64,000 nucleotides of DNA from Candidatus Woesearchaeota archaeon (lineage in GTDB: Archaea > Nanobdellota > Nanobdellia > Pacearchaeales > GW2011-AR1), in NCBI GenBank assembly GCA_964385425.1, contig CAYLOQ010000001.1, positions 86,602-150,601 on the forward strand, read 5' to 3'. Every line of letters starts with the position of its first letter. Positions within the stretch are counted from its first letter, which is position 1. Below the pieces are notes generated by a model. That model saw only the letters and a list, made by a program, of their open reading frames with translations. It was not told the DNA's origin and did not search any database. A program made the position numbers and the translations under genes. Below, piece by piece: positions 15,418-60,633 of the stretch.

Positions 15418-17046
15418 ATGCAACGTAAATATATTGTTCTAACAGGGGGTGTTCTTTCTGGTTTGGGTAAGGGTGTCGCCCTTGCAAGTATAGGGAAAAT
15501 CCTTTCTTCTTCATATAAGATTGTTCCGATAAAATGTGACGGTTATCTAAACGTTGATCCAGGTACAATGAACCCTATTGAGCATGGAGAGGTTTTTGTT
15601 TTGGATGATGGAACAGAGGTTGACATGGATTTTGGACATTACGAGAGATTTCTTGGTATAAATTGTAAAAGTGAGTGGAACCTAACAATGGGGAAAGTTT
15701 TTCATATGATTCACGAAAAAGAACGCAGAGGAGATTATTTAGGTAAAACAGTGCAAATGATTCCCCATGTTTCTAGATTCATAAAAGATTATTTTCTTGA
15801 CATTGGAAATGAAACAAATGCAGATGTTGTTCTTATTGAAATTGGAGGTACTGTCGGAGATATTGAAAATGAACTTTATATAGAGGCTGTGAAAAACCTT
15901 TCAAGGAGTGTAGGAAAGGAAAATATTTTGTTTGTGCATTTAACTTATGTTCCAGTTCCTGTTGGAGTTAATGAACAGAAATCAAAGCCTACTCAACAGA
16001 GTGTTTCTTTGTTAAGACAAAAAGGGATAGAGCCTCAAATTATTATCGCAAGATGCTCTGAGATGTTAACAAATGATTTTAAAAGAAAAATTACAAGGGA
16101 TTCGAATATTAATAAAGATGAGATCATAACAGGAATTGATGTGGATAATATCTACAAAATTCCCCTAATTTTTGAAAAGCAAGGTATGTCCAAACTATTG
16201 GAGAAAAAACTAAATATCCCAATTCATCCTGAACTTGGAGCCTGGAATGACTTAATTATTAAGAAAGAGGATGCGCAGGAAGAGATTATTATTGCAATAG
16301 CCGGAAAATACACAAAACTTGAGGATTCTTATGCGAGTGTAATTGAGGCTTTGCGTCACTGCGAGGCTCATTTGGATGTTAAAATTAGAATTAAATGGGT
16401 TGAAACAAGCAACCAAAAGATTATTGAAGAAACTCTTTCCGAGGTCCATGGAGTAATTGTTCCAGGGGGTTTTGGGACTAGGGGAGTTGAAGGAAAAATT
16501 TCTGTGATAAAGTATTGCCGGGAAAACAAGATACCTTTTCTTGGGATTTGTTATGGGTTACAGGTGGCTATAATTGAGTTTGCAAGAAATGTCTGTATGC
16601 TCTCTGAAGCACACACAACAGAAGTTGATCAAAACTGCAGATATCCTGTAGTAGATTTTATAGAAGGACAAGAAACAATAAATGAAAAAGGCGGTACGAT
16701 GAGGCTAGGTGGTTATCCGGCAGTTATAAAAGAAAAAAGCGTTGTCGAATCTCTTTATGACAGCAATGAAGTGTCTGAGAGACACAGACATCGTTATGAG
16801 GTTAACCCTAAATTTCACGATATTTTACAAAGTAAAGGGCTGATTATTTCGGGAACTTCTCCTGATAAAGTACTTGTCGAGTTTATTGAATTATCTTCCT
16901 TAAACCACCCCTACTTTGTTGCTACCCAGGCACACCCTGAACTTAAATCAAGGCTGGAAAAACCTGCACCGTTGTTTTACGGATTTGTTAAAGAAGCAAT
17001 TAATTTTTCCAAAAACCCCTTGTTGCAGATAGAAAAAAGGTTATAA
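15418..17046 (+). CDS. pyrG: CTP synthase
   Basis: N-terminal synthetase domain (YIVLTGGVLSGLGKGVALASIGKIL) and a C-terminal class I glutamine amidotransferase domain (GICYGLQ, with a downstream His). Confidence 0.9.
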   Translation: MQRKYIVLTGGVLSGLGKGVALASIGKILSSSYKIVPIKCDGYLNVDPGTMNPIEHGEVFVLDDGTEVDMDFGHYERFLGINCKSEWNLTMGKVFHMIHEKERRGDYLGKTVQMIPHVSRFIKDYFLDIGNETNADVVLIEIGGTVGDIENELYIEAVKNLSRSVGKENILFVHLTYVPVPVGVNEQKSKPTQQSVSLLRQKGIEPQIIIARCSEMLTNDFKRKITRDSNINKDEIITGIDVDNIYKIPLIFEKQGMSKLLEKKLNIPIHPELGAWNDLIIKKEDAQEEIIIAIAGKYTKLEDSYASVIEALRHCEAHLDVKIRIKWVETSNQKIIEETLSEVHGVIVPGGFGTRGVEGKISVIKYCRENKIPFLGICYGLQVAIIEFARNVCMLSEAHTTEVDQNCRYPVVDFIEGQETINEKGGTMRLGGYPAVIKEKSVVESLYDSNEVSERHRHRYEVNPKFHDILQSKGLIISGTSPDKVLVEFIELSSLNHPYFVATQAHPELKSRLEKPAPLFYGFVKEAINFSKNPLLQIEKRL

Positions 17047-17068
17047 ATGATTTCTACCTTAAAAGTTA

Positions 17069-17758
17069 ATGAAAAAAAACATAGTTGTCCTTAGCCTTGG
17101 CGGAAGCCTGATAATTCCTAACGAGGTAGATGTGAAATTTCTGAAAAAATTTAAAAAAGTGATTCTTAGAAATTCAAGGAAGTATAAATTTTTAATTGGG
17201 TGCGGGGGTGGAAGTATTGCGAGGAAATATATCTCTGCCTTAAGGAAAACGGGGAGGGGCGCAAAACACCAGAGTCTTGCGGGAATCGCGGCCACAAGGA
17301 TGAATGCAAGATTCATGAGTTATTTTTTCAACATTGACCCTGAACACGGAATCCCACATACAAAAGAGATGCTCATGAAATACATCAAAAAAAACGATAT
17401 TGTTTTTTTCGGAGCTCTTGAATACAAGCCGAAACAAACCTCTGATTCTACAGCTGTAGAGATTGCAAAGCATTTCAAAACAAAATTCATAAACCTCACA
17501 AATGTCAAGGGTCTTTATGACAAGGATCCAAGAAAAAACAAGGATGCAAAATTCATTTCTAAAATAAACTGGAAAGATTTTGATAAGATGGCAAACAAAT
17601 CAAAATATATACCAGGACAACACTTTGTTCTGGATCAGACAGCTTCAAAAGTCATAATGAAGCACAAAATCAAAACCCATATTCTTGGAAAAGACCTGAA
17701 ACAGCTCGAAAACGTCTTGAAAGGGGAAAAATTTCTAGGAACTGTTGTTAATGGATAA
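17069..17758 (+). CDS. pyrH: Uridylate (UMP) kinase, archaeal type
   Basis: Amino-acid-kinase fold signature (IVVLSLGGSLI) and 229-aa size; it sits directly after pyrG. Confidence 0.75.
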   Translation: MKKNIVVLSLGGSLIIPNEVDVKFLKKFKKVILRNSRKYKFLIGCGGGSIARKYISALRKTGRGAKHQSLAGIAATRMNARFMSYFFNIDPEHGIPHTKEMLMKYIKKNDIVFFGALEYKPKQTSDSTAVEIAKHFKTKFINLTNVKGLYDKDPRKNKDAKFISKINWKDFDKMANKSKYIPGQHFVLDQTASKVIMKHKIKTHILGKDLKQLENVLKGEKFLGTVVNG

Positions 17759-17800
17759 AGTTGATTTAAAGTTTATAAATACCAGTGTTCTCTTTAAAAA

Positions 17801-18253
17801 ATGGAAAAGTATATGTTCATTCAAGAAGGTAATTTTGAAAAATCTAGGAAAAAAATAAGAGAAAATTCAAAAAAAAGGATTATTTTTTCTAGTAAAGACG
17901 ATGAACTAAATAGAAAAATTCTAGAAAAAGAAAAAATAAATGTTTTGCTCTTAAACCAGAGCCAGAGAAGAGACAGGCCAAAACAGAGGGGCTCTGGGCT
18001 CAATCACGTGCTAGCAAAAATTGCGAAAAAGAAAGGGGTAGATATAGGAATAAATTTAGATGAGATTCTGCAGGCAAAGGGAAAAGAGAAATCAAACATT
18101 CTTGCCAGGATAAGACAAAATATAAAGCTGTGTAATAAGAATAAACTAAATATGAAACTGCTTTCTCCAGAGGAAAATAAAAGAAACGATTACGACTTAA
18201 AATCTTTAGGATTAGTCCTTGGTATGCCAACATGGATGACAAACTCACTATAA
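17801..18253 (+). CDS. Putative RNase P protein subunit Rpp30-like (shortened)
   Basis: The C-terminal half (LNHVLAKIAKKKGVDIGINLDEIL...ARIRQNIKLCNKNKLNMKLLS) resembles the conserved Rpp30/Rnp3 PHP-domain C-terminus. At 150 aa it is shorter than typical, so the call is tentative. Confidence 0.35.
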   Translation: MEKYMFIQEGNFEKSRKKIRENSKKRIIFSSKDDELNRKILEKEKINVLLLNQSQRRDRPKQRGSGLNHVLAKIAKKKGVDIGINLDEILQAKGKEKSNILARIRQNIKLCNKNKLNMKLLSPEENKRNDYDLKSLGLVLGMPTWMTNSL

Positions 18254-18254
18254 A

Positions 18255-19781
18255 ATGGATATAAAGAAATTAATAGATTCATTAAGCCCTATTGAGAGAA
18301 AGATTCTCCCCCACATAGAAGAAGAGAGCTTGAGTGACATCTGCAAGAAGTCAAACTTGGACAAAATTAGTGCTGTAAGAGCGTTGGAGTATTTAAAAAA
18401 TAAAAAAATAATAAAGATATCTACTAAAAAAAAGAGAATAGTAGAGATAGGAACCAATGGAGCGCTCTACAAAAAAAAGGGCCTGCCAGAGAGAAGACTC
18501 TTAAATCTCTTGAATGAAAAAAGGATTCTTAAATTAGAAGATGCACAAGAGCAGAGCAGGTTGTCAGACGATGAATTTAAAGCTTCCCTGGGTGCATTGA
18601 AAAAAAAAGAACTTATAAATCTTAACAAAGGAAAAATAATTTTTAGTGCTAAAAAAGAAGAGATTTCTAAAAAGAGTTCTGAAGAATCCCTAATAGAGTC
18701 TCTTCCCCTAGAACATGATTCTCTCTCTAAAGAACAACTCCATGCCTTGAAATCTCTTCAGAGCAGAAGAGATATAGTACAAATAAAAGAAGAAAAAAAT
18801 ATAGAAATAGAAGTAACTGATTTAGGTAAAAAATTAATCAGGGGTGAGATAAAAGGACCAGGACTAATAGAACAAGTAACTCCTGAAACTCTAAGGAAAG
18901 ATTCTTCATGGAAAGGGAAAAAGTTCAGAAGATATGACATAACCCATCCTGTCCCAAGGATTAGTGGGGGGAAGAGACATTTTGTAAATCAGGCAGTTGA
19001 TTATGCGAGGGGGGTCTGGACAGACATGGGTTTTAAAGAAATGACTGGGAACCTTCTCGTAAGTTCTTTCTGGAACTTCGATGCGCTATTCACTGCACAA
19101 GATCATCCTGTTAGAGAGATGCAAGATACTTTTTTCATAGATAAAAAAATAGATCTACCAGAAAAAGCCTTAGTAAGAAGAGTAAAAGAGAGCCATGAAA
19201 TAGGTGTTGGAAAGGGGCATGAAAAAAGCAAGGGCTGGCAATATTCTTGGGATGAGGAAGAAGCGAAAAGACTAGTTATGAGAACACACACTACGTGTTT
19301 GTCTGCACAAACCCTAGCCAACCTAAAGAAAGAAAAAATGCCTGCTAAATTTTTCGCGATTGGTAAGTGTTTTAGAAACGAAACTGTTGATTGGAGTCAT
19401 AGTTTTGAATTCCATCAAACAGAGGGAATCGTCGTAGACAAGAATGTAAATTTTAGACACCTCCTAGGATACCTACAACAATTTTTCAAAAAAATGGGAT
19501 TTGAAAAAGTAAGATTCAGACCTGCTTATTTTTCATATACAGAACCCTCTGTAGAAATAGATGTATGGCACCCTGATAAAAAAGTCTGGTTGGAATTGGG
19601 TGGAGCTGGAATTTTCAGACCAGAGGTAACTATCCCTCTTCTTGGAGAAGCTATTCCTGTACTTGCATGGGGTCCTGGATTTGACAGGATATTGATGGAT
19701 TATTATAAAATAAAAGACCTCAGAGAGCTGTACAAAAACGACATTGCAGAACTAAGGAGAATGAAATTCTGGATAAAATAA
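18255..19781 (+). CDS. pheS: Phenylalanyl-tRNA synthetase alpha subunit (archaeal)
   Basis: 508 aa with N-terminal winged-helix repeats and class II core motifs (FFAIGKCFRNE, FEFHQTEG, GGAGIFRPEV). Confidence 0.85.
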   Translation: MDIKKLIDSLSPIERKILPHIEEESLSDICKKSNLDKISAVRALEYLKNKKIIKISTKKKRIVEIGTNGALYKKKGLPERRLLNLLNEKRILKLEDAQEQSRLSDDEFKASLGALKKKELINLNKGKIIFSAKKEEISKKSSEESLIESLPLEHDSLSKEQLHALKSLQSRRDIVQIKEEKNIEIEVTDLGKKLIRGEIKGPGLIEQVTPETLRKDSSWKGKKFRRYDITHPVPRISGGKRHFVNQAVDYARGVWTDMGFKEMTGNLLVSSFWNFDALFTAQDHPVREMQDTFFIDKKIDLPEKALVRRVKESHEIGVGKGHEKSKGWQYSWDEEEAKRLVMRTHTTCLSAQTLANLKKEKMPAKFFAIGKCFRNETVDWSHSFEFHQTEGIVVDKNVNFRHLLGYLQQFFKKMGFEKVRFRPAYFSYTEPSVEIDVWHPDKKVWLELGGAGIFRPEVTIPLLGEAIPVLAWGPGFDRILMDYYKIKDLRELYKNDIAELRRMKFWIK

Positions 19782-19782
19782 G

Positions 19783-20109
19783 ATGGAAATAGAAGAAATA
19801 AACAAGTTCATAAATGAAGAAATAAAAAGATTGGAAGAATATCATTCTGAAAAAGATAAAGATGAATTAACAATGGCTATGGGATTTAAGGTCGTTGAAG
19901 AAATTGGAGAATTATTTGAAGAAATGTTAAAAAAGAAGGGCTATCAAAGAAAGGACAAACTAGAAAAGCAAAGTGAAGAGGAAATAAAAAAGGAATTTGC
20001 CGATGTAATATTCACGGTTTTAATCTTGGCAAAAAGATTTGATATAGATATAGAAGACGCTATAAAAATAAAAATGAGTGAAATAAAAAAGAGAAAATAC
20101 ACAAAATAA
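19783..20109 (+). CDS. MazG-like nucleotide pyrophosphohydrolase
   Basis: All-alpha 108-aa protein with the EEIGELFEE metal-binding EExxE motif typical of MazG/NTP-PPase domains. It is wedged between pheS and pheT. Confidence 0.55.
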   Translation: MEIEEINKFINEEIKRLEEYHSEKDKDELTMAMGFKVVEEIGELFEEMLKKKGYQRKDKLEKQSEEEIKKEFADVIFTVLILAKRFDIDIEDAIKIKMSEIKKRKYTK

Positions 20110-20112
20110 AAA

Positions 20113-21759
20113 ATGGCCATAATAAACCTCAACAAAAAACTCTTTGAAAGGGAACTTGGAACCTTGGACTCCAAGATGAAGAACAGAATTGCTATGTTTG
20201 GGACTCCTATTGAAAGGATTACCAGAGACGAGATCCAGATAGAAATATTCCCGAACAGACCAGACCTGTCTTCATACCAAGGATTCAAAAGATCCTTCCT
20301 TGCTTTCTTAGGAAAGAAAACAGGGTTAAAGGAATACAGAATAAATAGTCCTGAAAAAAATTACCAGGTGTATATAGATTCTTCTGTGAGGGATGTTCGT
20401 CCTTATACTGCTTGTGCAATAATAAAGAATCTAAGATTGAATGACGAAAAAATAAAAGAGATAATTGAAATCCAGGAGAAACTGCACATCACTATCGGAA
20501 GAAAAAGAAAAAAAGTTGCAATTGGTATTTATCCCTTAGAAAAAATAAAGCTTCCGATAACCTTCAAGGCTTTAGAGCCAGACAAGATAAAGTTCATCCC
20601 CTTAGAAATGGGTAGAGAGCTTTCCGGACTTGAAATTCTTCAGAGACATCCTGCAGGTAGGAATTATGCCCATCTTTTAGCTGGAAAAGCTAAATTCCCA
20701 ATTTTCATAGATGCGAATAAACAGATATTAAGCATGCCCCCTATAATCAATTCTCAAGCAACAGGAAGAATAACAGAAAAAACCAGGGATGTTTTTGTAG
20801 AGTGCTCTGGATCTGATCTAAAAACTTTAAAACAATGTCTAAATATAATCGTTACGAGCTTAGCGGAAATGGGTGGAGATATTTATCAAATGAAACTAAA
20901 TTACGGAAAGACCCCGGATCTTACACCAAAAAAAGCGAGAATTTCCTTAGAAAATACGAACAAGCTCCTTGGATTGGAACTTAATGAAAAACAACTCAAA
21001 CAACTTATAGAGAAAATGGGCTATAATTATAAAGAGGGAACTGTTCAGGTCCCTGCTTGGAGAACAGATATTTTACACGAGGTCGACCTTATAGAAGACG
21101 TTGCAATAGCCTATGGTTATGATAATTTTATTCCAGAAATTCCAGATATATCCACAATCGGTGAAGAAAATCCGATAGAAGGGATAAAGAGAAAAATATC
21201 AGAAATTTTTTCTGGATTAGAAGTGCTGGAAGTTTCTAATTATCACCTAACAAATAAGAGAAACCAACTGATAAAAATGAGTGTTTTAGAAAAACAAGAG
21301 AAAAATCTTATAGAACTAGAAGAATCAAAAACAGATTTTACAATTTTAAGAAAAAACCTCACCCACCTTTTATTAAAAATTTTTTCAGAAAATGTAGATG
21401 CAGAGTACACACAAAAAATATTTGAAGTTGGAAAGGTTTTCAGATTAGAAGATTCCGGAAAAATAAAAGAGGTTGAAATGTTTGCCATGGCTCTCTCTCC
21501 AGGAAATTTCACAGAAATAAAACAAATATTAGAATATTTCTCAAGGATGACAGGCATACCCTTAAAATTGAAAGAGGGTGAAGAAACACCTTTACATTTT
21601 ATCAAAGGCAGAGTTGCTCAGGTATTTTTCAAAGGAGAGAAGATAGGGTTTCTTGGAGAAATCCATCCAAAAATTTTAAAAAGCTGGAAGATAAAAATGC
21701 CTGTAGCATTAATGGAAATTGAATTAGAAGAAATTTTTAAAGAATTGGAAAAAGATTAG
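20113..21759 (+). CDS. pheT: Phenylalanyl-tRNA synthetase beta subunit (archaeal)
   Basis: 548 aa with a B3/4 editing-like domain and a C-terminal class-II-like fold; it is operonic with pheS. Confidence 0.85.
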   Translation: MAIINLNKKLFERELGTLDSKMKNRIAMFGTPIERITRDEIQIEIFPNRPDLSSYQGFKRSFLAFLGKKTGLKEYRINSPEKNYQVYIDSSVRDVRPYTACAIIKNLRLNDEKIKEIIEIQEKLHITIGRKRKKVAIGIYPLEKIKLPITFKALEPDKIKFIPLEMGRELSGLEILQRHPAGRNYAHLLAGKAKFPIFIDANKQILSMPPIINSQATGRITEKTRDVFVECSGSDLKTLKQCLNIIVTSLAEMGGDIYQMKLNYGKTPDLTPKKARISLENTNKLLGLELNEKQLKQLIEKMGYNYKEGTVQVPAWRTDILHEVDLIEDVAIAYGYDNFIPEIPDISTIGEENPIEGIKRKISEIFSGLEVLEVSNYHLTNKRNQLIKMSVLEKQEKNLIELEESKTDFTILRKNLTHLLLKIFSENVDAEYTQKIFEVGKVFRLEDSGKIKEVEMFAMALSPGNFTEIKQILEYFSRMTGIPLKLKEGEETPLHFIKGRVAQVFFKGEKIGFLGEIHPKILKSWKIKMPVALMEIELEEIFKELEKD

Positions 21760-21780: not shown

Positions 21781-23196
21781 ATGGAAGATGTTTACGCCAA
21801 AATTAATTCAATAGAAAATTTAACATTGGCTTGGCAAAATGCAAAGAAAGGGAAGACTAAAAAAAGATATGTAAAAAGATTCCAGAAAAATCTAAAAAGT
21901 AATTTATTATCTCTACAAAAAGAACTTAAAAATCATACCTACAAAACAAGACCTCAAAAGAAATTCATATTGAGAGATCCTAAAACAAGAAAAATATTAA
22001 AATCCGTTTTTAGAGACAGAGTTATTCATCATGCGTTATGTAATATTATCACTCCTGTTTTTGAGGGGGGATTTATCTATGATTCACACGCCAATCAAAT
22101 AGGAAAGGGGACGCTGAAGGCGTTAGAAAGATTTGACAAATTTAAAAGAAAAGTTTCTAAAAATAACTCTAGAAATTGCTATGTTTTAAAGGCAGATATA
22201 AAACACTATTTTGAAGAGATAGATCATAAAATCTTGATAGATATCATAAAAAATAAGATTAAAGATGAGAGAGTTATATGGCTCGCCTATAAAATCTTAA
22301 AGAGTAGCAGAGAGAGAAACGAGCAATCCATTAAAGATAAAGGCATGCCTTTAGGAAATTTAACATCGCAATTTTTTGCTAACGTTTACCTTAATGAATT
22401 AGACAAATTTGTTAAACACAAGTTAAGAGCAAAATATTATATAAGATATGTTGATGATTTTGTAATTCTGCATAGATCTAAGGAACAGCTTGAAAAGTGG
22501 AAGAATAAAATAGATATCTTTCTAAAAGAAAAATTGGATTTAAAATTACATCCAAATAAATCTCAGATTTTAAAATTAGAAAAAGGGATTAAATTCTTAG
22601 GCTTTAGAATTTTCAATTATCATAAGCTTTTAAGAAAGAGCAATATGAAACATTTTGAAAGAAAATTAAATCATATGAAAATAATGCTTGAGGAAGATTT
22701 ATTAAATAGAGAAGAAATTGTAGAGAAATTAGAAGGTTGGCTAGCTTATGCTGTCAAGGGTAATACTCATAAATATAGAAAATATATAGTTCAGAATTTT
22801 AATAGACTTTTTCCTATAGATAAAACAATCCCAATAAAAAATAAGAAGAAACATTTTAACTTTTTGAAAAAGGTTGATGAAAGTACTTTGGAATTTTCAG
22901 TTCAAAAAACTCTTTTTATGTTTTGCAACGGAATGAAAATCAAAGACCTTGCTGAGAAAAGAGGGATAAAAGAAGGGACAGTGTGGAAGCATTTAATAAA
23001 TTTGATAGAGCACAAACAAATTTTAGTATCTCAAGTTTTGCCTAATAAAAAGATTAGACTAATTGCAAATAAGATTTATAATAAAAAAGATGGGCTGAAG
23101 GTGATTAAAAGAAGATTGAAAAGCCATAATATTAATTATGATGAAATTGCTTGTGTTTTGGCAAGTATAAAATCAAAAAATAAAAAAGTGTCCTAG
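21781..23196 (+). CDS. DGR-type reverse transcriptase
   Basis: RT motifs 1-7 are present (DRVIHHAL; SHANQIGKGT; LKADIKHYFEEIDH; YIRYVDDFVIL; LGFRI). Motif 4 reads LGNLTSQFFANVYLNELD, i.e. the DGR-specific [ILV]GxxxSQ rather than the group II intron QGxxxSP. There is a ~150-aa C-terminal extension with a possible HTH (IKDLAEKRGIKEGTVWKHL). Confidence 0.8.
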   Translation: MEDVYAKINSIENLTLAWQNAKKGKTKKRYVKRFQKNLKSNLLSLQKELKNHTYKTRPQKKFILRDPKTRKILKSVFRDRVIHHALCNIITPVFEGGFIYDSHANQIGKGTLKALERFDKFKRKVSKNNSRNCYVLKADIKHYFEEIDHKILIDIIKNKIKDERVIWLAYKILKSSRERNEQSIKDKGMPLGNLTSQFFANVYLNELDKFVKHKLRAKYYIRYVDDFVILHRSKEQLEKWKNKIDIFLKEKLDLKLHPNKSQILKLEKGIKFLGFRIFNYHKLLRKSNMKHFERKLNHMKIMLEEDLLNREEIVEKLEGWLAYAVKGNTHKYRKYIVQNFNRLFPIDKTIPIKNKKKHFNFLKKVDESTLEFSVQKTLFMFCNGMKIKDLAEKRGIKEGTVWKHLINLIEHKQILVSQVLPNKKIRLIANKIYNKKDGLKVIKRRLKSHNINYDEIACVLASIKSKNKKVS

Positions 23197-23215
23197 TAAG
23201 CAAGTCCAAGTTATT

Positions 23216-23300
23216 AAAGGCGAAACGACCATTGTCGTTGCTAAGATTAGTCCTCGCATTCGACCTAGCCCCGCTGCCGAGCCTGTTGACGTACCACGCC
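23216..23300 (-). repeat. DGR template repeat (TR); sense strand is the minus strand
   Basis: Its 85 bp are identical to 23705-23789 except at 9 positions. All 9 carry T in this copy and C in the other on the + strand, i.e. A vs G on the minus strand. The minus-strand sense reads AWYVNRLGSGARSNARTNLSNDNGRFA, with the AAC/AAT/AGC codons typical of TRs. Confidence 0.75.
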
Positions 23301-23467
23301 GCCCAAGTTAGCCTATTTACTTCTTGTTTTCACCACCACTTCACACATTAGGTGTCGTGATTGTATTTTATAAGAGCAAGCTCCCATCGTAAATAAACGT
23401 ATAGCCTAGCTTACTTCGTAAAAACGGTTGCTAGGACAAAATTATATGATAAAAACGCTATAAAAAT

Positions 23468-24400
23468 CTATTGACTTGTTAAATCATCAATCGCTTTTCT
23501 AACCTCAGACTCATTAGCAGAACCAATATAATCTCCAATTACAGAATAAATTTGATCAGTAGTTAATAGTCTTTTTCTTAATTGGTCTCTTTCATCTAAA
23601 GCACTTCCAATTTGATCAATTTGTCCAGATTGTAACGTTCCTTCTAAACTTTGAAGTTGAACTCTTGCTTTATCGATGTCAACCTTAGCGTCTCCGACGC
23701 CATAAAAGGCGAAACGACCATCGCCGCCGCTAAGATTAGCCCTCGCACTCGACCCAGCCCCGCCGCCGAGCCTGCTGACGTACCACGCCTTCAAGACTCC
23801 TTTATCGCTAACATCAGGCAAATCTTGTCCCATCATTGTAACATCTTTATCATTAATATATTCTCTTCCTAATTCAAATGTCTTGCCAATAATTTCTGCA
23901 ACTTCATCTCCCGACCTTGCGAATTTAGAATCAACATGATCTGGATGTCCTAATTTTGTTAAAAGTAATTTGTGCTTCATTGCTTGACTTTCTGTTAAAT
24001 CTTTATTAAGAATTAATCCTTTTCTTTGAAGAGTATAAACTCCGTTTCCTTCTAATTTTTCCCATCTGCCGTCAACATCCAAGTTTACTCCGTAATTCAC
24101 TAGCTCTTCATCAGGATTGATTAAGCCTAAACCAAATCTAGCAACCTCTGTCAATTCTCTACTTCCAGTCTCATAAGGTAAAATAACTTTTACAGTTTCT
24201 CCTTTTGTTGCTGATAATGTTGAAGTATCCCAATATTGATCCCTTATTTCAGGATTTTCAATTCCATATTTTCTTATGTCAGCTTCTGAAAGAATAACAC
24301 CTTCGCCTTTTTCATATCTTGCTAAAAGCACTGGTGAGGTATCTACATTTCTACCATAACAAGGTTCTATTGTCCTTCCTTCTAATTGGATGTTTTCCAT
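23468..24400 (-). CDS. DGR target (variable) protein
   Basis: 310 aa with no signal peptide. The VR lies at aa ~205-231 (KAWYVSRLGGGAGSSARANLSGGDGRFAFYGVGD) and is followed by an ~80-aa helical C-terminal tail. Confidence 0.7.
   Translation of the reverse strand: MENIQLEGRTIEPCYGRNVDTSPVLLARYEKGEGVILSEADIRKYGIENPEIRDQYWDTSTLSATKGETVKVILPYETGSRELTEVARFGLGLINPDEELVNYGVNLDVDGRWEKLEGNGVYTLQRKGLILNKDLTESQAMKHKLLLTKLGHPDHVDSKFARSGDEVAEIIGKTFELGREYINDKDVTMMGQDLPDVSDKGVLKAWYVSRLGGGAGSSARANLSGGDGRFAFYGVGDAKVDIDKARVQLQSLEGTLQSGQIDQIGSALDERDQLRKRLLTTDQIYSVIGDYIGSANESEVRKAIDDLTSQ
23687..23701 (-). promoter_or_regulatory. GC hairpin immediately 3' of the VR (5-6 bp stem GCGTC/GACGC, loop GGA on the sense strand)
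   Basis: A perfect inverted repeat, g-GCGTC-GGA-GACGC-t, 4 nt downstream (sense) of the VR homology end. The TR has no counterpart. Confidence 0.5.
23705..23789 (-). repeat. DGR variable repeat (VR) inside the target gene
   Basis: It matches the TR at 76 of 85 positions. It encodes AWYVSRLGGGAGSSARANLSGGDGRFA in frame in ORF 23468-24400. Confidence 0.75.
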
Positions 24401-24482: not shown

Positions 24483-24968
24483 CTAACCGAAGTAACCTTT
24501 ATTGTTTGCTTCTGATTTGTTATCCCAATTTTGATTTATTTTATCCAAAATAACCAAAAAGTCTCTCTTTATTTCCTTCCATAGATCGTAAGAATACCTT
24601 ACAAATTCAGCTTCTTTTTCTTCAGAAAATTCTGTGTCAAGCCTGATCAAGGTAATTTCATTTTTTGTAAGTTTTTTATAGATGTCTGATGCCTTTTTTC
24701 TCTCTTCTGTTCCAAGGGTCTTAATAATAGAAAAAACAAACATAGGAGCATTTACGGGATTAAGAAGAGTTTCTATAAATCTCATATATCCCCCCAATTT
24801 ATCTGCCATGAACTTCCTTATCTCCCTTATCAAGATATCTGTCTCAACCTCTGCCGCTTTTTCTATCTGAAAATCTTCGTTAAGTTCCCTAAAATCAGGA
24901 AGGTCGTATTTCCTTTTGATTACTTCATAATTTTTCTTTAATTTTTCCAGTTTAGATTTTTCTTCCAT
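24483..24968 (-). CDS. Hypothetical helical protein upstream of the DGR target, a candidate DGR accessory factor
   Basis: 161 aa, predicted all-alpha and charged, co-oriented with the target gene. No Avd signature could be verified. Confidence 0.35.
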   Translation of the reverse strand: MEEKSKLEKLKKNYEVIKRKYDLPDFRELNEDFQIEKAAEVETDILIREIRKFMADKLGGYMRFIETLLNPVNAPMFVFSIIKTLGTEERKKASDIYKKLTKNEITLIRLDTEFSEEKEAEFVRYSYDLWKEIKRDFLVILDKINQNWDNKSEANNKGYFG

Positions 24969-30707: not shown

Positions 30708-30812
30708 GCCCCTATAGTTCAGAGGCCAAGAATGCGGCCCTCTCAAATGGCAACTTGTTGACGTTTGTCGTAGAGCACGGCCGTGACCTGAGTTCGAATC
30801 TCAGTGGGGGCG
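30708..30812 (+). tRNA. tRNA-Glu (anticodon CUC) with a 32-nt intron at the canonical 37/38 site (intron 30746-30777)
   Basis: Acceptor GCCCCTA/TGGGGGC, D-arm GTTC-AGAGGCCAA-GAAT, anticodon stem CGGCC...GGCCG, and T-arm CTGAG-TTCGAAT-CTCAG. Removing 30746-30777 leaves the anticodon loop CUCUCAC. Confidence 0.75.
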
Positions 30813-54563: not shown

Positions 54564-54677
54564 GGCTCCGTAGCTCAGCTTGGTCAGAGCACCAGACTCT
54601 TAGCAGAACCGAGGTTCCGCACCTCCTATTAATTGAGAGATATCTGGGTGTCGAGGGTTCAAATCCCTCCGGGGCCA
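54564..54677 (+). tRNA. tRNA-Lys (anticodon CUU) with a 39-nt intron at 37/38 (intron 54603-54641)
   Basis: Acceptor GGCTCCG/CGGGGCC, D-arm GCTC-AGCTTGGTCA-GAGC, anticodon stem CCAGA...TCTGG, and T-arm GAGGG-TTCAAAT-CCCTC. The spliced loop is CUCUUAA. A TATA-like tttttaaag lies ~28 bp upstream. Confidence 0.75.
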
Positions 54678-59614: not shown

Positions 59615-60055
59615 ATGGGTTCACAAACTTTAGAAGAAAAAGCTGTTAAAGTTCGCATTGGAAAAGTCATGAAAGATATAGTTGAAGTTAAAGGTTCTGT
59701 AATATGGGTTGAAGGATTTAATGAACCCTTTGAAATAATGCTCAAGCCAGGAACTATGATAGTTGATGACCACCTCCCTCGTGTAACAGGATATCAAAAA
59801 AAATTACACATAGCCTTAGATTCTGAAACCTCAACATATGGAATAGGATTATTAAAATTTATGGGAACAAGTCCTGTAAGAAGAGGGGATAATATAACGG
59901 CTGGCCTTATATTAGGAGAAAATGTAGAGAAGTCTGGTGAAGGGGAAGCTCTTTATGTAAGTATGTGGGGAGATGATGAATTTCTTATAAGAAGAGATTA
60001 TATGGATGGTTATGATCCCTTACATAATGAAGCTAAAAGATTAGGATTAACTTAA
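59615..60055 (+). CDS. Hypothetical protein
   Basis: 146-aa ORF; no motif. Confidence 0.4.
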   Translation: MGSQTLEEKAVKVRIGKVMKDIVEVKGSVIWVEGFNEPFEIMLKPGTMIVDDHLPRVTGYQKKLHIALDSETSTYGIGLLKFMGTSPVRRGDNITAGLILGENVEKSGEGEALYVSMWGDDEFLIRRDYMDGYDPLHNEAKRLGLT

Positions 60056-60090
60056 AACCACTTGCCCAAAGTCATCTGGGTTTTTAAAAA
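60054..60090. repeat. Copy A of a ~35-bp imperfect direct repeat (ttaaaaccacTTGCCCAAAGTcATCTGGGTTTTTa)
   Basis: About 30 of 34 positions identical to 60594-60633. Confidence 0.5.
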
Positions 60091-60558: not shown

Positions 60559-60593
60559 AAATCATAGATGAATCACTTATTTTTAAATAATTC

Positions 60594-60633
60594 TTAAAAC
60601 CACGTTCCCAAAGTAGTCTGGGTTTTTATTTGT
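60594..60633. repeat. Copy B of the ~35-bp imperfect direct repeat (ttaaaaccacgTTCCCAAAGTaGTCTGGGTTTTTa)
   Basis: See copy A. Together the two copies bracket the RelE-like gene. Confidence 0.5.

What the first reader, a model, noticed from the sequence alone, without database searches (positions are those of the whole stretch)
21781..23470. Unusual DGR architecture: RT convergent to TR and target; TR sense strand is antisense to the RT gene
The adenine-bearing (template) strand of the TR is the minus strand, the same strand as the target gene, whereas the RT is encoded on the plus strand and ends 20 bp before the TR. A TR RNA therefore cannot be co-transcribed with the RT mRNA as in the canonical avd-TR-RT arrangement. 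It must come from target-gene read-through (target-VR...168 nt...TR) or from its own promoter: a TATA-like cttataaaata sits on the minus strand around 23360-23372, ~60 nt upstream of the TR. An 8-bp inverted repeat TGTCCTAG/CTAGGACA (23196-23203 and 23429-23436) brackets the TR plus leader. The RT is ~100-150 aa longer than typical DGR RTs and its C-terminus contains an HTH-like segment (IKDLAEKRGIKEGTVWKHL), suggesting a DNA-binding extension. No Avd gene is evident adjacent to the RT.
Basis: inference. Interest (0 to 1): 0.65.

Follow-up and report, generated by a model that had tools for sequence, protein, structure and literature searches.

The report
Archaeal DGR with separately transcribed template RNA
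This is a real diversity-generating retroelement of a tiny (DPANN) archaeon; its template RNA looks like a self-contained gene on the strand opposite the reverse transcriptase, a layout common in this lineage and noted in general terms before.

Summary
RT 21781-23196 (+) is convergent with TR 23213-23300 (-) and VR 23702-23789 (-). All 10 TR/VR differences fall on TR adenines of the minus strand.

New here: Rfam RT-16 (RF03019) lies directly 5' of the TR on the TR sense strand (23303-23435, 73 bits). In 103 of 105 related DPANN loci with both features it has this position, whatever the RT orientation.

A TTTTTATA box (23459-23466) sits at archaeal-promoter distance from the RNA's 5' end. An oligo-T tract follows it, antisense to the last RT codons.

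The RT extension is a Pfam HTH_40 domain. The target has the C-type lectin fold of nanoarchaeal AvpA. No Avd was found.

The convergent layout appears in about 43 of 131 sampled loci and arose several times. Wu et al. 2018 already noted that TR and RT can lie on different strands.

Verdict: an ordinary DPANN DGR, with a modestly new reading of its RNA as a promoter-to-terminator gene acting in trans. All transcription and function claims are inferred from sequence.

The parts
21781..23196 (+). DGR reverse transcriptase gene, 471 aa
   Evidence: RVT_1 covers residues 70-277, E 4.5e-24. It carries the DGR-type motif LGNLTSQ at residue 191 and YVDD at 223. The best solved relative is 8ub7_A, a 328-aa reverse transcriptase, E 1.4e-54, covering query 4-328.
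22897..23160 (+). Part of the RT gene encoding the C-terminal HTH_40 domain (residues 373-460)
   Evidence: Pfam PF14493 matches at E 1.9e-15 over its full model, positions 1-89. The AF2 model has pLDDT 83.6. Its best PDB fold match is the RecQ C-terminal domain 3iuo, probability 0.97, TM 0.5-0.57, although the E-value is only 0.24. The RVT_1+HTH_40 fusion is present in all 120 best homologues.
23175..23188 (-). Oligo-T tract (CTTTTTTATTTTTT on the minus strand), the predicted archaeal terminator of the template RNA; it is antisense to the Lys-rich last codons of the RT
   Evidence: Coordinates are. A T5+ run lies within 3 nt of the 3' arm in 28 of 37 convergent loci, against 4 of 71 canonical loci. 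Terminator function is inferred.
23189..23196 (-). 3' arm of the closing helix P0 (CTAGGACA); it overlaps the RT stop codon on the other strand
   Evidence: Coordinates are. Family-level covariation with the 5' arm is shown. The helix is present in the MFE fold.
23197..23212 (-). Short tail between the TR and the 3' arm
   Evidence: Sequence. The tail is 12-25 nt long in relatives.
23213..23300 (-). Template repeat (TR); the sense strand is the minus strand
   Evidence: All 10 mismatches to the VR are at TR adenines. All 20 TR adenines are at codon positions 1 or 2.
23302..23430 (-). RT-16 structured RNA domain directly 5' of the TR
   Evidence: The Rfam RF03019 hit is at 23303-23435, 73.2 bits against a gathering score of 50. 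My own model R1 hits 23302-23440 at 112 bits. Helices P2-P4 carry compensatory changes.
23362..23371 (-).
   Evidence: It is conserved in all 16 aligned relatives and enclosed by the covarying helix P2.
23431..23438 (-). 5' arm of the closing helix P0 (TGTCCTAG) and the predicted 5' end of the template RNA
   Evidence: The Rfam model instead pairs the overlapping CCUAGC locally, as hairpin P1.
23459..23466 (-). TTTTTATA box, the predicted archaeal TATA element of the template-RNA promoter; it lies 1 nt downstream of the target gene's stop codon (23468-23470)
   Evidence: The 8-mer starts at -29 from the G of GTCC in 34 of 81 unique loci and at -28 to -31 in 50 of 81. An A-rich stretch lies at -36 to -32. 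Promoter function is inferred.
23468..24400 (-). Target (variable protein) gene, 310 aa
   Evidence: No Pfam, NCBIfam or PDB sequence hit was found. The AF2 model has pLDDT 87.9. The top Foldseek PDB hit is 5ioo_A, the nanoarchaeal C-type lectin-fold DGR variable protein, E 2.3e-7. Helices 242-309 follow the VR.
23702..23789 (-). Variable repeat (VR), about residues 204-233 of the target
23688..23700 (-). Hairpin GCGTC-GGA-GACGC just 3' of the VR, inside the target ORF and absent after the TR
   Evidence: Sequence. It matches the GRA-loop hairpins inside target genes described for nanoarchaeal DGRs (PMC4372165).

Best explanation
This is a DPANN-archaeal diversity-generating retroelement built from three separate transcription units.

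(1) The RT gene lies on the plus strand.

(2) The C-type lectin-fold target gene lies on the minus strand.

(3) Immediately downstream of the target, also on the minus strand, lies a self-contained gene for a template RNA of about 255 nt. This gene has its own archaeal TATA box (23459-23466). The RNA would start near 23437 with UGUCCUAG. It continues through the RT-16 structured domain (to 23302), then the TR (23300-23213) and a 16-nt tail. It ends with CUAGGACA (23196-23189), which pairs back to the 5' end, followed by an oligo-U terminator.

Because that closing helix joins the two ends, the RT-16 domain sits next to the 3' end of the TR, where cDNA synthesis must begin. RT-16 would therefore play the role that the spacer downstream of the TR plays in the Bordetella phage element, but without Avd.

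The RT, made from its own mRNA, binds this RNA in trans and copies the TR with errors at adenines. The cDNA then replaces the VR; the GGA-loop hairpin after the VR marks the recipient.

Shown by sequence analysis: the DGR hallmarks, RT-16 and its position, the covarying helix, the conserved TATA spacing, the T-tract, and the fold assignments. Inferred: the transcript ends, trans action, the scaffold or priming role of RT-16, and activity.
For: DGR hallmarks. All TR/VR mismatches fall on TR adenines and all TR adenines are at codon positions 1 or 2. The RT has the LGNLTSQ and YVDD motifs, and its best solved relative is 8ub7 at E 1.4e-54. The target model's top Foldseek PDB hit is 5ioo, the nanoarchaeal C-type lectin-fold variable protein.

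RT-16. It lies at 23303-23435 on the minus strand, 73 bits against a gathering score of 50. A model built from 16 hits finds it in 67 of 81 and 68 of 80 sources. In 103 of 105 loci with both a hit and a TR/VR call, it lies directly 5' of the TR on the A-bearing strand. This holds in all four RT layouts.

Internal helices. 16 of 22 predicted pairs have compensatory changes, and they enclose the AUAAAAUACA box.

Closing helix. On an alignment anchored by sequence only (91 loci, 9 pairs), 82.8% of cells pair. With partner rows permuted the figure is 73.5 +/- 0.9%, and none of 1000 permutations reaches the observed value. Slid by 1-3 columns it drops to 34-52%. Compensatory types are GTCCTG/CAGGAC, GTCCCA/TGGGAC, GTCTTA/TAAGAC, GTCCTC/GAGGAC and GTCTCA/TGAGAC. 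The helix is in the window's MFE fold and in 43 of 51 family MFE folds.

Promoter and terminator. The TATA 8-mer is focused at -29 and is preceded by an A-rich stretch. A T5+ run follows the 3' arm in 28 of 37 convergent loci against 4 of 71 canonical loci.

Independence of the RT. The layout changed at least 7 times on an RT tree while the target-RT-16-TR unit stayed fixed.
Against: No transcript data are available, so the start and end of the RNA rest on motif spacing alone. T-rich boxes are common in this 34% GC genome, and TTTTTATA could also act as the target gene's terminator.

In single loci an 8-bp helix is not significant against local AT-rich controls (median p 0.22). The case rests on family-level covariation. 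The permutation control ignores relatedness, and a 9-pair helix gives limited power.

The Rfam model pairs the same 5' nucleotides in a local hairpin (P1), so P0 and P1 are mutually exclusive over about 6 nt and which one forms is unknown.

The family MFE test cut the RNAs exactly at the arms, which favours a terminal helix.

The analogy between RT-16 and the Bordetella spacer is topological only; no sequence or structure similarity was shown.

Class frequencies come from the best 80 hits in each of two collections, not from an unbiased sample.
Confidence: 0.7

Rival explanations
1. The TR RNA has no promoter of its own. It is the 3' untranslated extension of the target mRNA (target-VR, then RT-16, then TR), perhaps processed afterwards. 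The T-rich box after the target stop is a leaky terminator rather than a TATA box.
For: The target, RT-16 and TR are always co-oriented and adjacent. Only 32 nt separate the target stop from the Rfam RT-16 hit (29 nt from the P0 5' arm). The boxes at 23466 and 23455 are T5 runs, which can terminate archaeal transcription.
Against: The 8-mer TTTTTATA is focused at one distance (-29) from the RNA's 5' arm, with an A-rich BRE-like stretch upstream. A terminator has no need for that spacing, and it matches archaeal TATA-to-start distances (general knowledge). The 5' arm of the closing helix begins exactly where such a promoter would start transcription.
Confidence: 0.2
2. The inverted repeat is a DNA-level feature, either half-sites for a dimeric protein or recombination sites that flip or move the module, and not an RNA helix.
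For: The module is found in four layouts relative to the RT, and the layout changed at least 7 times. Arms that co-evolve as DNA half-sites would also look like covariation. A.C cells (about 40) are not much rarer than G.U cells (about 60) in the arm alignment.
Against: What differs between layouts is the RT gene, not the segment between the repeats; the target-RT-16-TR order never changes. The arms flank an RNA whose internal helices covary on the same strand. The helix is predicted in MFE folds. No recombinase was seen next to the loci. The repeat also occurs with RTs that lack the HTH domain (L021, L042).
Confidence: 0.08
3. The copy at 23213-23300 is not the working template. It could be a second or decayed VR with the true TR elsewhere, or the layout could be an assembly inversion.
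For: None was found.
Against: Only two copies exist in the 64 kb. The direction of the differences (A in this copy, G or T in the ORF copy) defines it as the TR. It lies outside any ORF of at least 50 aa and carries the family's RT-16 leader. The same layout recurs in 42 independent contigs from many samples.
Confidence: 0.02

Closest known systems
Nanoarchaeal / DPANN DGRs (DUSEL4 Nanoarchaeota, Paul et al. 2015, PMC4372165; AvpA structure 5ioo)
   Same: The RT belongs to the same group; locus L031 comes from Nanoarchaeota AAA011-G17. The target has the same C-type lectin fold. A GRA-loop hairpin after the VR lies inside the target ORF. No clear Avd is present. RT-16 precedes the TR in those loci as well.
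   Different: Here the RT gene is inverted relative to the target-TR unit. The RT carries an extra HTH_40 domain. The target has about 70 extra C-terminal helical residues after the VR. Within the library searched, the promoter, RT-16 and closing-helix anatomy is not described.
Bordetella phage BPP-1 DGR (mtd-avd-TR-brt)
   Same: Both show adenine-specific TR-to-VR transfer. The RTs are homologous: the closest solved structure, 8ub7 (a 328-aa reverse transcriptase), matches at E 1.4e-54. That 8ub7 is the BPP-1 enzyme is my recollection and was not verified. Both have an identical TR/VR 3' segment, and both targets have a C-type lectin fold.
   Different: In BPP-1 the TR is co-oriented with brt. 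A non-coding spacer downstream of the TR binds Avd and supports priming and processivity (PMC6182149). [quoted passage not shown] Here there is no Avd, the structured domain (RT-16) lies upstream of the TR, only a 16-nt tail follows the TR, and the RNA is on the opposite strand with its own predicted promoter and terminator.
Rfam RT-16 RNA (RF03019; Weinberg et al. 2017)
   Same: The window sequence 23303-23435 (-) scores 73.2 bits against a gathering score of 50 over the full model.
   Different: The published description says only that the RT motifs lie near RT genes and may belong to retrons or DGRs. Here RT-16 is placed as the 5' domain of the DPANN DGR template RNA. It abuts the TR and carries a closing helix that the Rfam model does not include.
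DGR architectures with components on different strands, and those with HRDC accessory genes (Wu et al. 2018, PMC5758913)
   Same: [quoted passage not shown] HRDC accessory proteins are helicase-C-terminal nucleic-acid-binding domains, conceptually like the fused HTH_40 domain, whose best fold match is a RecQ C-terminal domain.
   Different: HTH_40 is not HRDC, and here it is fused to the RT rather than encoded separately. Their supplementary tables could not be read, so whether this exact layout was catalogued is unknown.
Retron ncRNA (msr-msd)
   Same: It works alike only in outline: a compact non-coding RNA with terminal inverted repeats enclosing a structured part and a template, read by a cognate RT.
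   Different: The RT is of DGR type, a TR/VR pair exists, there is no evidence for a branching guanosine, and the retron profiles score far below their cut-offs.

Membership tests
Diversity-generating retroelement | A TR/VR repeat pair whose differences fall almost only on adenines of one copy | tested here: met
   All 10 differences are at TR adenines. Only two copies exist in the window.
Diversity-generating retroelement | An RT of the DGR type ([I/L/V]GxxxSQ motif; homology to bRT) | tested here: met
   LGNLTSQ is at residue 191 and YVDD at 223. The best PDB relative is 8ub7_A at E 1.4e-54. That [I/L/V]GxxxSQ is diagnostic rests on my knowledge of the DGR literature.
Diversity-generating retroelement | The VR lies in a protein-coding target, with TR adenines at codon positions 1-2, and the fold tolerates variation (C-type lectin or Ig) | tested here: met
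   The 20 TR adenines split 12 at position 1, 8 at position 2 and none at position 3. The model's top Foldseek hit is the C-type lectin-fold protein 5ioo_A.
Diversity-generating retroelement | IMH-like identical 3' segment, and a hairpin downstream of the VR but not of the TR | tested here: met
   The 17-nt segment ATGGTCGTTTCGCCTTT is shared. The GCGTC-GGA-GACGC hairpin at 23688-23700 follows only the VR.
Diversity-generating retroelement | An Avd accessory protein (present in most DGRs, not universal) | tested here: not met
   No Avd family hit was found among the neighbouring ORFs scanned. [quoted passage not shown] Wu et al. report 29% of DGRs without accessory genes, so this does not exclude membership.
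Diversity-generating retroelement | Ongoing mutagenic homing (VR variation within a population) | not testable with these tools
   This needs read-level metagenomic data for the scaffold.
Rfam RT-16 RNA (RF03019) | Covariance-model score at or above the curated gathering score | tested here: met
   73.2 bits against 50, over the full model 1-158.
Rfam RT-16 RNA (RF03019) | Conserved secondary structure supported by compensatory changes | tested here: met
   16 of 22 RNAalifold pairs have double-sided changes in a MAFFT alignment of 16 loci.
Pfam HTH_40 (PF14493) | Profile score above the gathering cut-off over the whole domain | tested here: met
   57.4 bits against 27, model positions 1-89 of 89. 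The best fold match is the RecQ C-terminal domain 3iuo, probability 0.97 but E 0.24.
Group II intron | An RT/maturase above the family cut-off, plus intron RNA domains flanking the ORF | tested here: not met
   TIGR04416 scores 164.6 bits against a cut-off of 300. No group II intron RNA family was found in the window.
Retron | A retron-type RT with an msr-msd ncRNA and no TR/VR pair | tested here: not met
   The retron RT profile scores 59.7 bits against a cut-off of 235. A TR/VR pair is present. No Rfam retron msr family reached its gathering score in the window.

The most novel reading that the evidence does not exclude
DPANN DGR template RNAs are autonomous, portable ncRNA genes whose architecture is permuted relative to the Bordetella paradigm. 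The RT-binding or priming scaffold (RT-16) lies 5' of the TR and is brought to the TR's 3' end by a terminal helix, which allows Avd-independent, trans-acting mutagenic reverse transcription. In the convergent subclade, the RNA's terminator overlaps the RT's last codons in antisense. The RT mRNA has no oligo-T stop until about 375 nt past its stop codon, so sense/antisense pairing could couple RT and template-RNA levels.
Probability: 0.35. Interest if true: 0.65.

Novelty: new variant of a known kind. Interest (0 to 1): 0.45.

Why it matters
If the template RNA is a compact, self-contained gene that works in trans with a single RT protein and no Avd, it would be the smallest known DGR core and an attractive chassis for targeted-diversification tools. 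It would also show that the RNA scaffold needed for priming can sit on either side of the template.

Three practical points follow for annotation. RT-16 (RF03019) can serve as a strand-aware marker for the TR in DPANN DGRs. Pipelines that expect the TR next to and co-oriented with the RT will mis-orient or miss this clade. The function of one 'orphan' Rfam motif is narrowed to a specific role.

Tried and rejected
- The sigma-70 promoter and intrinsic-terminator scan showed no enrichment and does not apply to an archaeon.
- Sequence searches of the target against Pfam, NCBIfam and PDB gave nothing; only the fold search was informative.
- The 161-aa ORF upstream of the target (24483-24968) was considered as an Avd substitute. 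It was rejected because it has no family hit and a homologue near only 1 of 80 DGR loci.
- Per-locus tests of the closing helix against random windows were not significant in this AT-rich DNA (median p 0.22), so the argument was moved to family-level covariation.
- A first automatic call of the 3' arm picked a wrong site in the GTCCTGG subgroup and was redone with a motif-plus-T-tract rule.
- A search for further VR copies in the window found none.
- Group II intron and retron assignments were rejected on profile cut-offs.
- Paul et al. 2017 (PMC5436926) and the supplementary tables of Wu 2018 and Weinberg 2017 were not available. I therefore could not check whether this exact layout or the taxonomy of RT-16 was already tabulated.
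- The library holds no paper linking RT-16 or HTH_40 to DGRs.
- A search for the PDB codes of the closest RT structure returned only irrelevant hits, so the identity of 8ub7 as bRT rests on memory.
Full report
CHECK OF THE OBSERVATION

The region holds an ORF of 471 aa at 21781-23196 (+) and one of 310 aa at 23468-24400 (-). An 88-nt repeat lies at 23213-23300 and 23702-23789. Read on the minus strand, the two copies differ at 10 positions. All ten are adenines in the 23213-23300 copy (9 A>G, 1 A>T). Chance would place mismatches only on A with probability about 5e-9; that figure was computed for an 89-nt span whose eleventh mismatch is the boundary base 23301, a C.

All 20 adenines of that copy fall on codon positions 1 or 2 of the target frame. 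An adenine-masked pattern finds no third copy in the 64 kb. So 23213-23300 is a TR whose sense strand is the minus strand. The VR sits in the minus-strand ORF, and the RT on the plus strand ends 16 nt before the TR.

The inverted repeat exists but at 23431-23438 / 23189-23196. The 'cttataaaata' is at 23364-23374.

WHAT THE PROTEINS ARE

The RT has RVT_1 (residues 70-277) and a full-length Pfam HTH_40 domain (residues 373-460, E 1.9e-15). It carries LGNLTSQ and YVDD. Its closest solved relative is the 328-aa reverse transcriptase 8ub7 (E 1.4e-54, covering query 4-328), so residues from about 330 to 471 are an extension.

A model of the extension (pLDDT 83.6) is most similar to the C-terminal domain of a RecQ helicase. 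The match is 3iuo, probability 0.97 and TM 0.5-0.57, but with a weak E-value of 0.24. This agrees with the Pfam assignment. The RVT_1+HTH_40 fusion is not a peculiarity of this locus: all 120 best homologues have it, and more than 5000 proteins match at E <= 1e-10. Sources name them Pacearchaeota, Woesearchaeota or Nanoarchaeota.

The target has no sequence-level family. Its model (pLDDT 87.9) has one significant PDB match, 5ioo_A, the C-type lectin-fold variable protein of a nanoarchaeal DGR (E 2.3e-7). About 70 helical residues follow the VR.

No Avd family hit was found for the twelve neighbouring ORFs scanned between 17.8 and 30.3 kb.

The genome is archaeal. It has intron-containing tRNAs and archaeal-type housekeeping genes, and the window comes from a 505-kb metagenome scaffold.

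THE KEY NEW OBSERVATION: RT-16

Rfam finds one non-tRNA family in the window: RT-16 (RF03019) at 23303-23435 on the minus strand, 73.2 bits against a gathering score of 50. That is exactly the 'leader' between the target stop and the TR, on the TR's sense strand.

RT-16 was published only as one of 19 motifs 'nearby to RT genes'. [quoted passage not shown] The library holds no later functional work on RT-16.

I fetched 160 related loci: 80 from genomes and 80 from metagenomes. I called TR/VR pairs in them by adenine-specific mismatches. From 16 Rfam hits I built a covariance model and searched all loci with it.

The element is present in 67 of 81 and 68 of 80 sources. In 103 of the 105 loci that have both a hit and a TR/VR call, it lies directly 5' of the TR on the adenine-bearing strand. 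The gap is mostly -4 to +3 nt.

In an unbiased MAFFT alignment, 16 of its 22 predicted pairs show double-sided compensatory changes. The helices enclose the nearly invariant AUAAAAUACA. It is an internal loop of the RNA, so a transcript starting about 25 nt downstream of it could not form the conserved structure.

LAYOUTS IN THE FAMILY

With the RT set to the plus strand, the RT-16/TR module takes four positions:
- upstream on the same strand, the canonical target>RT-16>TR>RT order, in 74 loci; 7 further cases that my ORF-start rule mislabelled also look canonical by eye;
- downstream and convergent, as in the window, in 42 loci, or 43 with L084, which I reassigned by eye;
- upstream and divergent in 4 loci;
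- downstream on the same strand in 3 loci.

The order target>RT-16>TR never changes; only the RT gene moves or flips. On a rough NJ tree of RT cores the layout changed at least 7 times. The canonical layout is ancestral, and the window sits in a coherent clade of 23 unique RT sequences, 22 of them convergent.

In the convergent class the RT stop and the 3' end of RT-16 are usually 89-126 nt apart, so the TR abuts the stop codon.

These counts come from the best hits of two searches and are not population frequencies. The convergent layout is therefore real, recurrent and stable, but not rare. Wu et al. [quoted passage not shown]

PROMOTER, CLOSING HELIX, TERMINATOR

I lined up the flanks of the module. 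Three features recur.

First, a TTTTTATA box lies upstream of the RNA's 5' end. Anchored on the G of the conserved 5' GTCC, the 8-mer starts at -29 in 34 of 81 unique loci and at -28 to -31 in 50 of 81. An A-rich stretch lies at -36 to -32. This is the spacing of an archaeal BRE/TATA promoter relative to its start site (general knowledge). In the window the box is at 23459-23466, 1 nt downstream of the target's stop codon, and it predicts a start near 23437.

Second, the 5' UGUCCYAGC is complementary to GCURGGACA, which lies 12-25 nt after the TR. On an alignment made from sequence alone, so not fitted to pairing, 82.8% of 750 cells pair. With partner rows permuted the figure is 73.5 +/- 0.9%, and 0 of 1000 permutations reach the observed value. 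When the partner is slid by 1-3 columns it falls to 34-52%. The arms change together: GTCCTG/CAGGAC, GTCCCA/TGGGAC, GTCCTA/TAGGAC, GTCTTA/TAAGAC, GTCCTC/GAGGAC and GTCTCA/TGAGAC.

In a single locus the helix is weak evidence. Shuffles of the two small windows give an 8-bp match in 0.6% of cases, and AT-rich local windows give comparable helices at median p 0.22. Across the family it is convincing. The window's 256-nt RNA folds with this helix in its MFE structure (-74 kcal/mol, z -2.15). So do 43 of 51 family RNAs, although those were cut at the arms, which favours a terminal helix.

The Rfam model pairs the same 5' bases with a nearby GCUAGG (hairpin P1). The two pairings exclude each other, and I cannot say which one prevails or whether they alternate.

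Third, in the convergent class the 3' arm is followed within 3 nt by a run of at least five T in 28 of 37 unique loci, against 4 of 71 canonical loci. In canonical loci the RT's ATG usually follows the arm within about 15 nt. The predicted RNA 3' end then overlaps the RT ORF by 15-24 nt in 20 of 28 loci. In the window the arm's CUA is the antisense of the RT's TAG stop codon, and the T-tract (23175-23188) is the antisense of the lysine codons of ...KSKNKKVS*.

HOW IT MOST LIKELY WORKS

The template RNA is its own gene. It runs from a promoter (23459-23466), through the 5' arm, RT-16, the TR, the tail and the 3' arm, to a terminator. It is about 255 nt long and lies on the minus strand.

The RT is made from a separate plus-strand mRNA. 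A TTTTTAAA box lies about 41 nt upstream of its ATG. The RT must find the RNA in trans.

In BPP-1 a non-coding segment downstream of the TR binds Avd, supplies the priming site and confers processivity (PMC6182149). Here only a 16-nt tail follows the TR and there is no Avd. The structured domain is on the 5' side, and the closing helix places it next to the TR's 3' end. I therefore infer that RT-16 together with P0 is the functional counterpart of the spacer, in a permuted topology.

The stable helix P2 just 5' of the TR would also mark where copying ends. The hairpin GCGTC-GGA-GACGC (23688-23700) follows the VR but not the TR. It matches the GRA-loop hairpins inside nanoarchaeal target genes (PMC4372165) and would mark the recipient.

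The role of HTH_40 is open. RTs without it use the same RNA, for example L021 and L037, so it is not required for recognising RT-16.

All of this paragraph is inference from anatomy.

RIVALS

Read-through from the target gene remains possible, and the T5 runs could be leaky terminators. However, a terminator does not explain the fixed -29 spacing.

A DNA-level role for the repeat, as a protein half-site or recombination site, would also give co-varying arms. G.U cells are only modestly commoner than A.C cells, about 60 against 40. Against this, the segment between the repeats never inverts relative to the target, and the arms flank an RNA with independent covariation.

A mis-assigned TR or an assembly artefact is excluded by the direction of the mismatches, the absence of other copies and 42 independent contigs with the same layout.

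COMPARISON AND NOVELTY

This is a member of the DPANN/nanoarchaeal DGR group on every defining feature tested: the adenine-specific TR/VR pair, the DGR-type RT, the C-type lectin target, the hairpin and the adenine codon placement. Avd is absent, as in 29% of catalogued DGRs.

TR and RT on opposite strands is a known variation. What I did not find described is the identification of RT-16 as the 5' domain of the template RNA, its dedicated promoter, the closing helix, the terminator overlapping the RT's 3' end, and the RT-HTH_40 fusion. I could not read Paul et al. 2017 or the supplementary tables of Wu et al., so priority is uncertain.

I rate it a new variant of a known kind, of moderate interest: an ordinary element whose RNA anatomy gives a testable, Avd-free and trans-acting model.

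Noticed in passing
window 30708-30812 (+) and 54564-54677 (+): Two tRNA genes of 105 and 114 nt were found by Rfam but missed by ARAGORN. They probably contain introns, which fits an archaeal (DPANN) genome.
   Followed up: no
window 15418-21759: The DGR sits directly after a housekeeping cluster: CTP synthase, an amino-acid-kinase-like ORF, RNase P p30, PheRS alpha, a MazG-like ORF and PheRS beta. The RT ATG is only 21 nt after the pheT stop, so the element is chromosomal and not on an obvious mobile element.
   Followed up: partly
window 24483-24968 (-); L020 6493-6927: A 161-aa helical ORF upstream of the target has no family hit. Its only homologue among the first 80 loci lies just downstream of the RT in L020 (30% identity, E 6e-12). 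This may be coincidence or a rare accessory gene.
   Followed up: partly
window 23197-23572 (+): No run of five or more T occurs on the plus strand between the RT stop and 23572. RT transcripts may therefore read antisense through the whole template-RNA gene and into the target's 3' end, giving possible sense/antisense pairing.
   Followed up: partly
proteins P0096-P0120; alignment A2 columns 500-593: Woesearchaeota relatives of the RT (550-580 aa) carry a further Cys-rich tail of about 90 aa after HTH_40 (WYxRTNCxRKC...C...C), possibly a zinc-binding module.
   Followed up: no
window 23471-23696 (-), target residues 236-310: The VR is not at the C-terminus. About 70 residues of predicted helices (242-309, lower pLDDT of 59-82) follow the C-type lectin domain, and several shorter homologues (237-260 aa) cover only about 75% of the protein.
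   Followed up: partly
L015, L022, L025, L031, L037, L038, L044, L045, L051, L067, L070, L072, L076, L077: Many related DGRs have two or three VRs matching a single TR, some on the opposite strand or several kb away, so multi-target DGRs are common in this group. The window has one VR.
   Followed up: no
canonical loci, e.g. L021 4966-5001, L042, L006: In the same-strand layout the RT start codon follows the 3' arm of the closing helix by only about 0-15 nt. The template RNA would then double as the RT's 5' leader, and the helix could occlude or expose the translation start.
   Followed up: partly
window 60051-60086 and 60593-60628: A 36-nt direct repeat at 89% identity, 542 nt apart. The mismatches are not adenine-specific, so it is probably not a second DGR.
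   Followed up: no
RT-16 variable hairpin (alignment A3 columns about 175-240): The hairpin that carries an AGUA/GAA (sarcin-ricin-like) loop in many relatives, flagged for RF03019 by a 2026 JAR3D survey (PMC13085918), is reduced to a few nucleotides in the window's subclade. That motif therefore appears dispensable.
   Followed up: no
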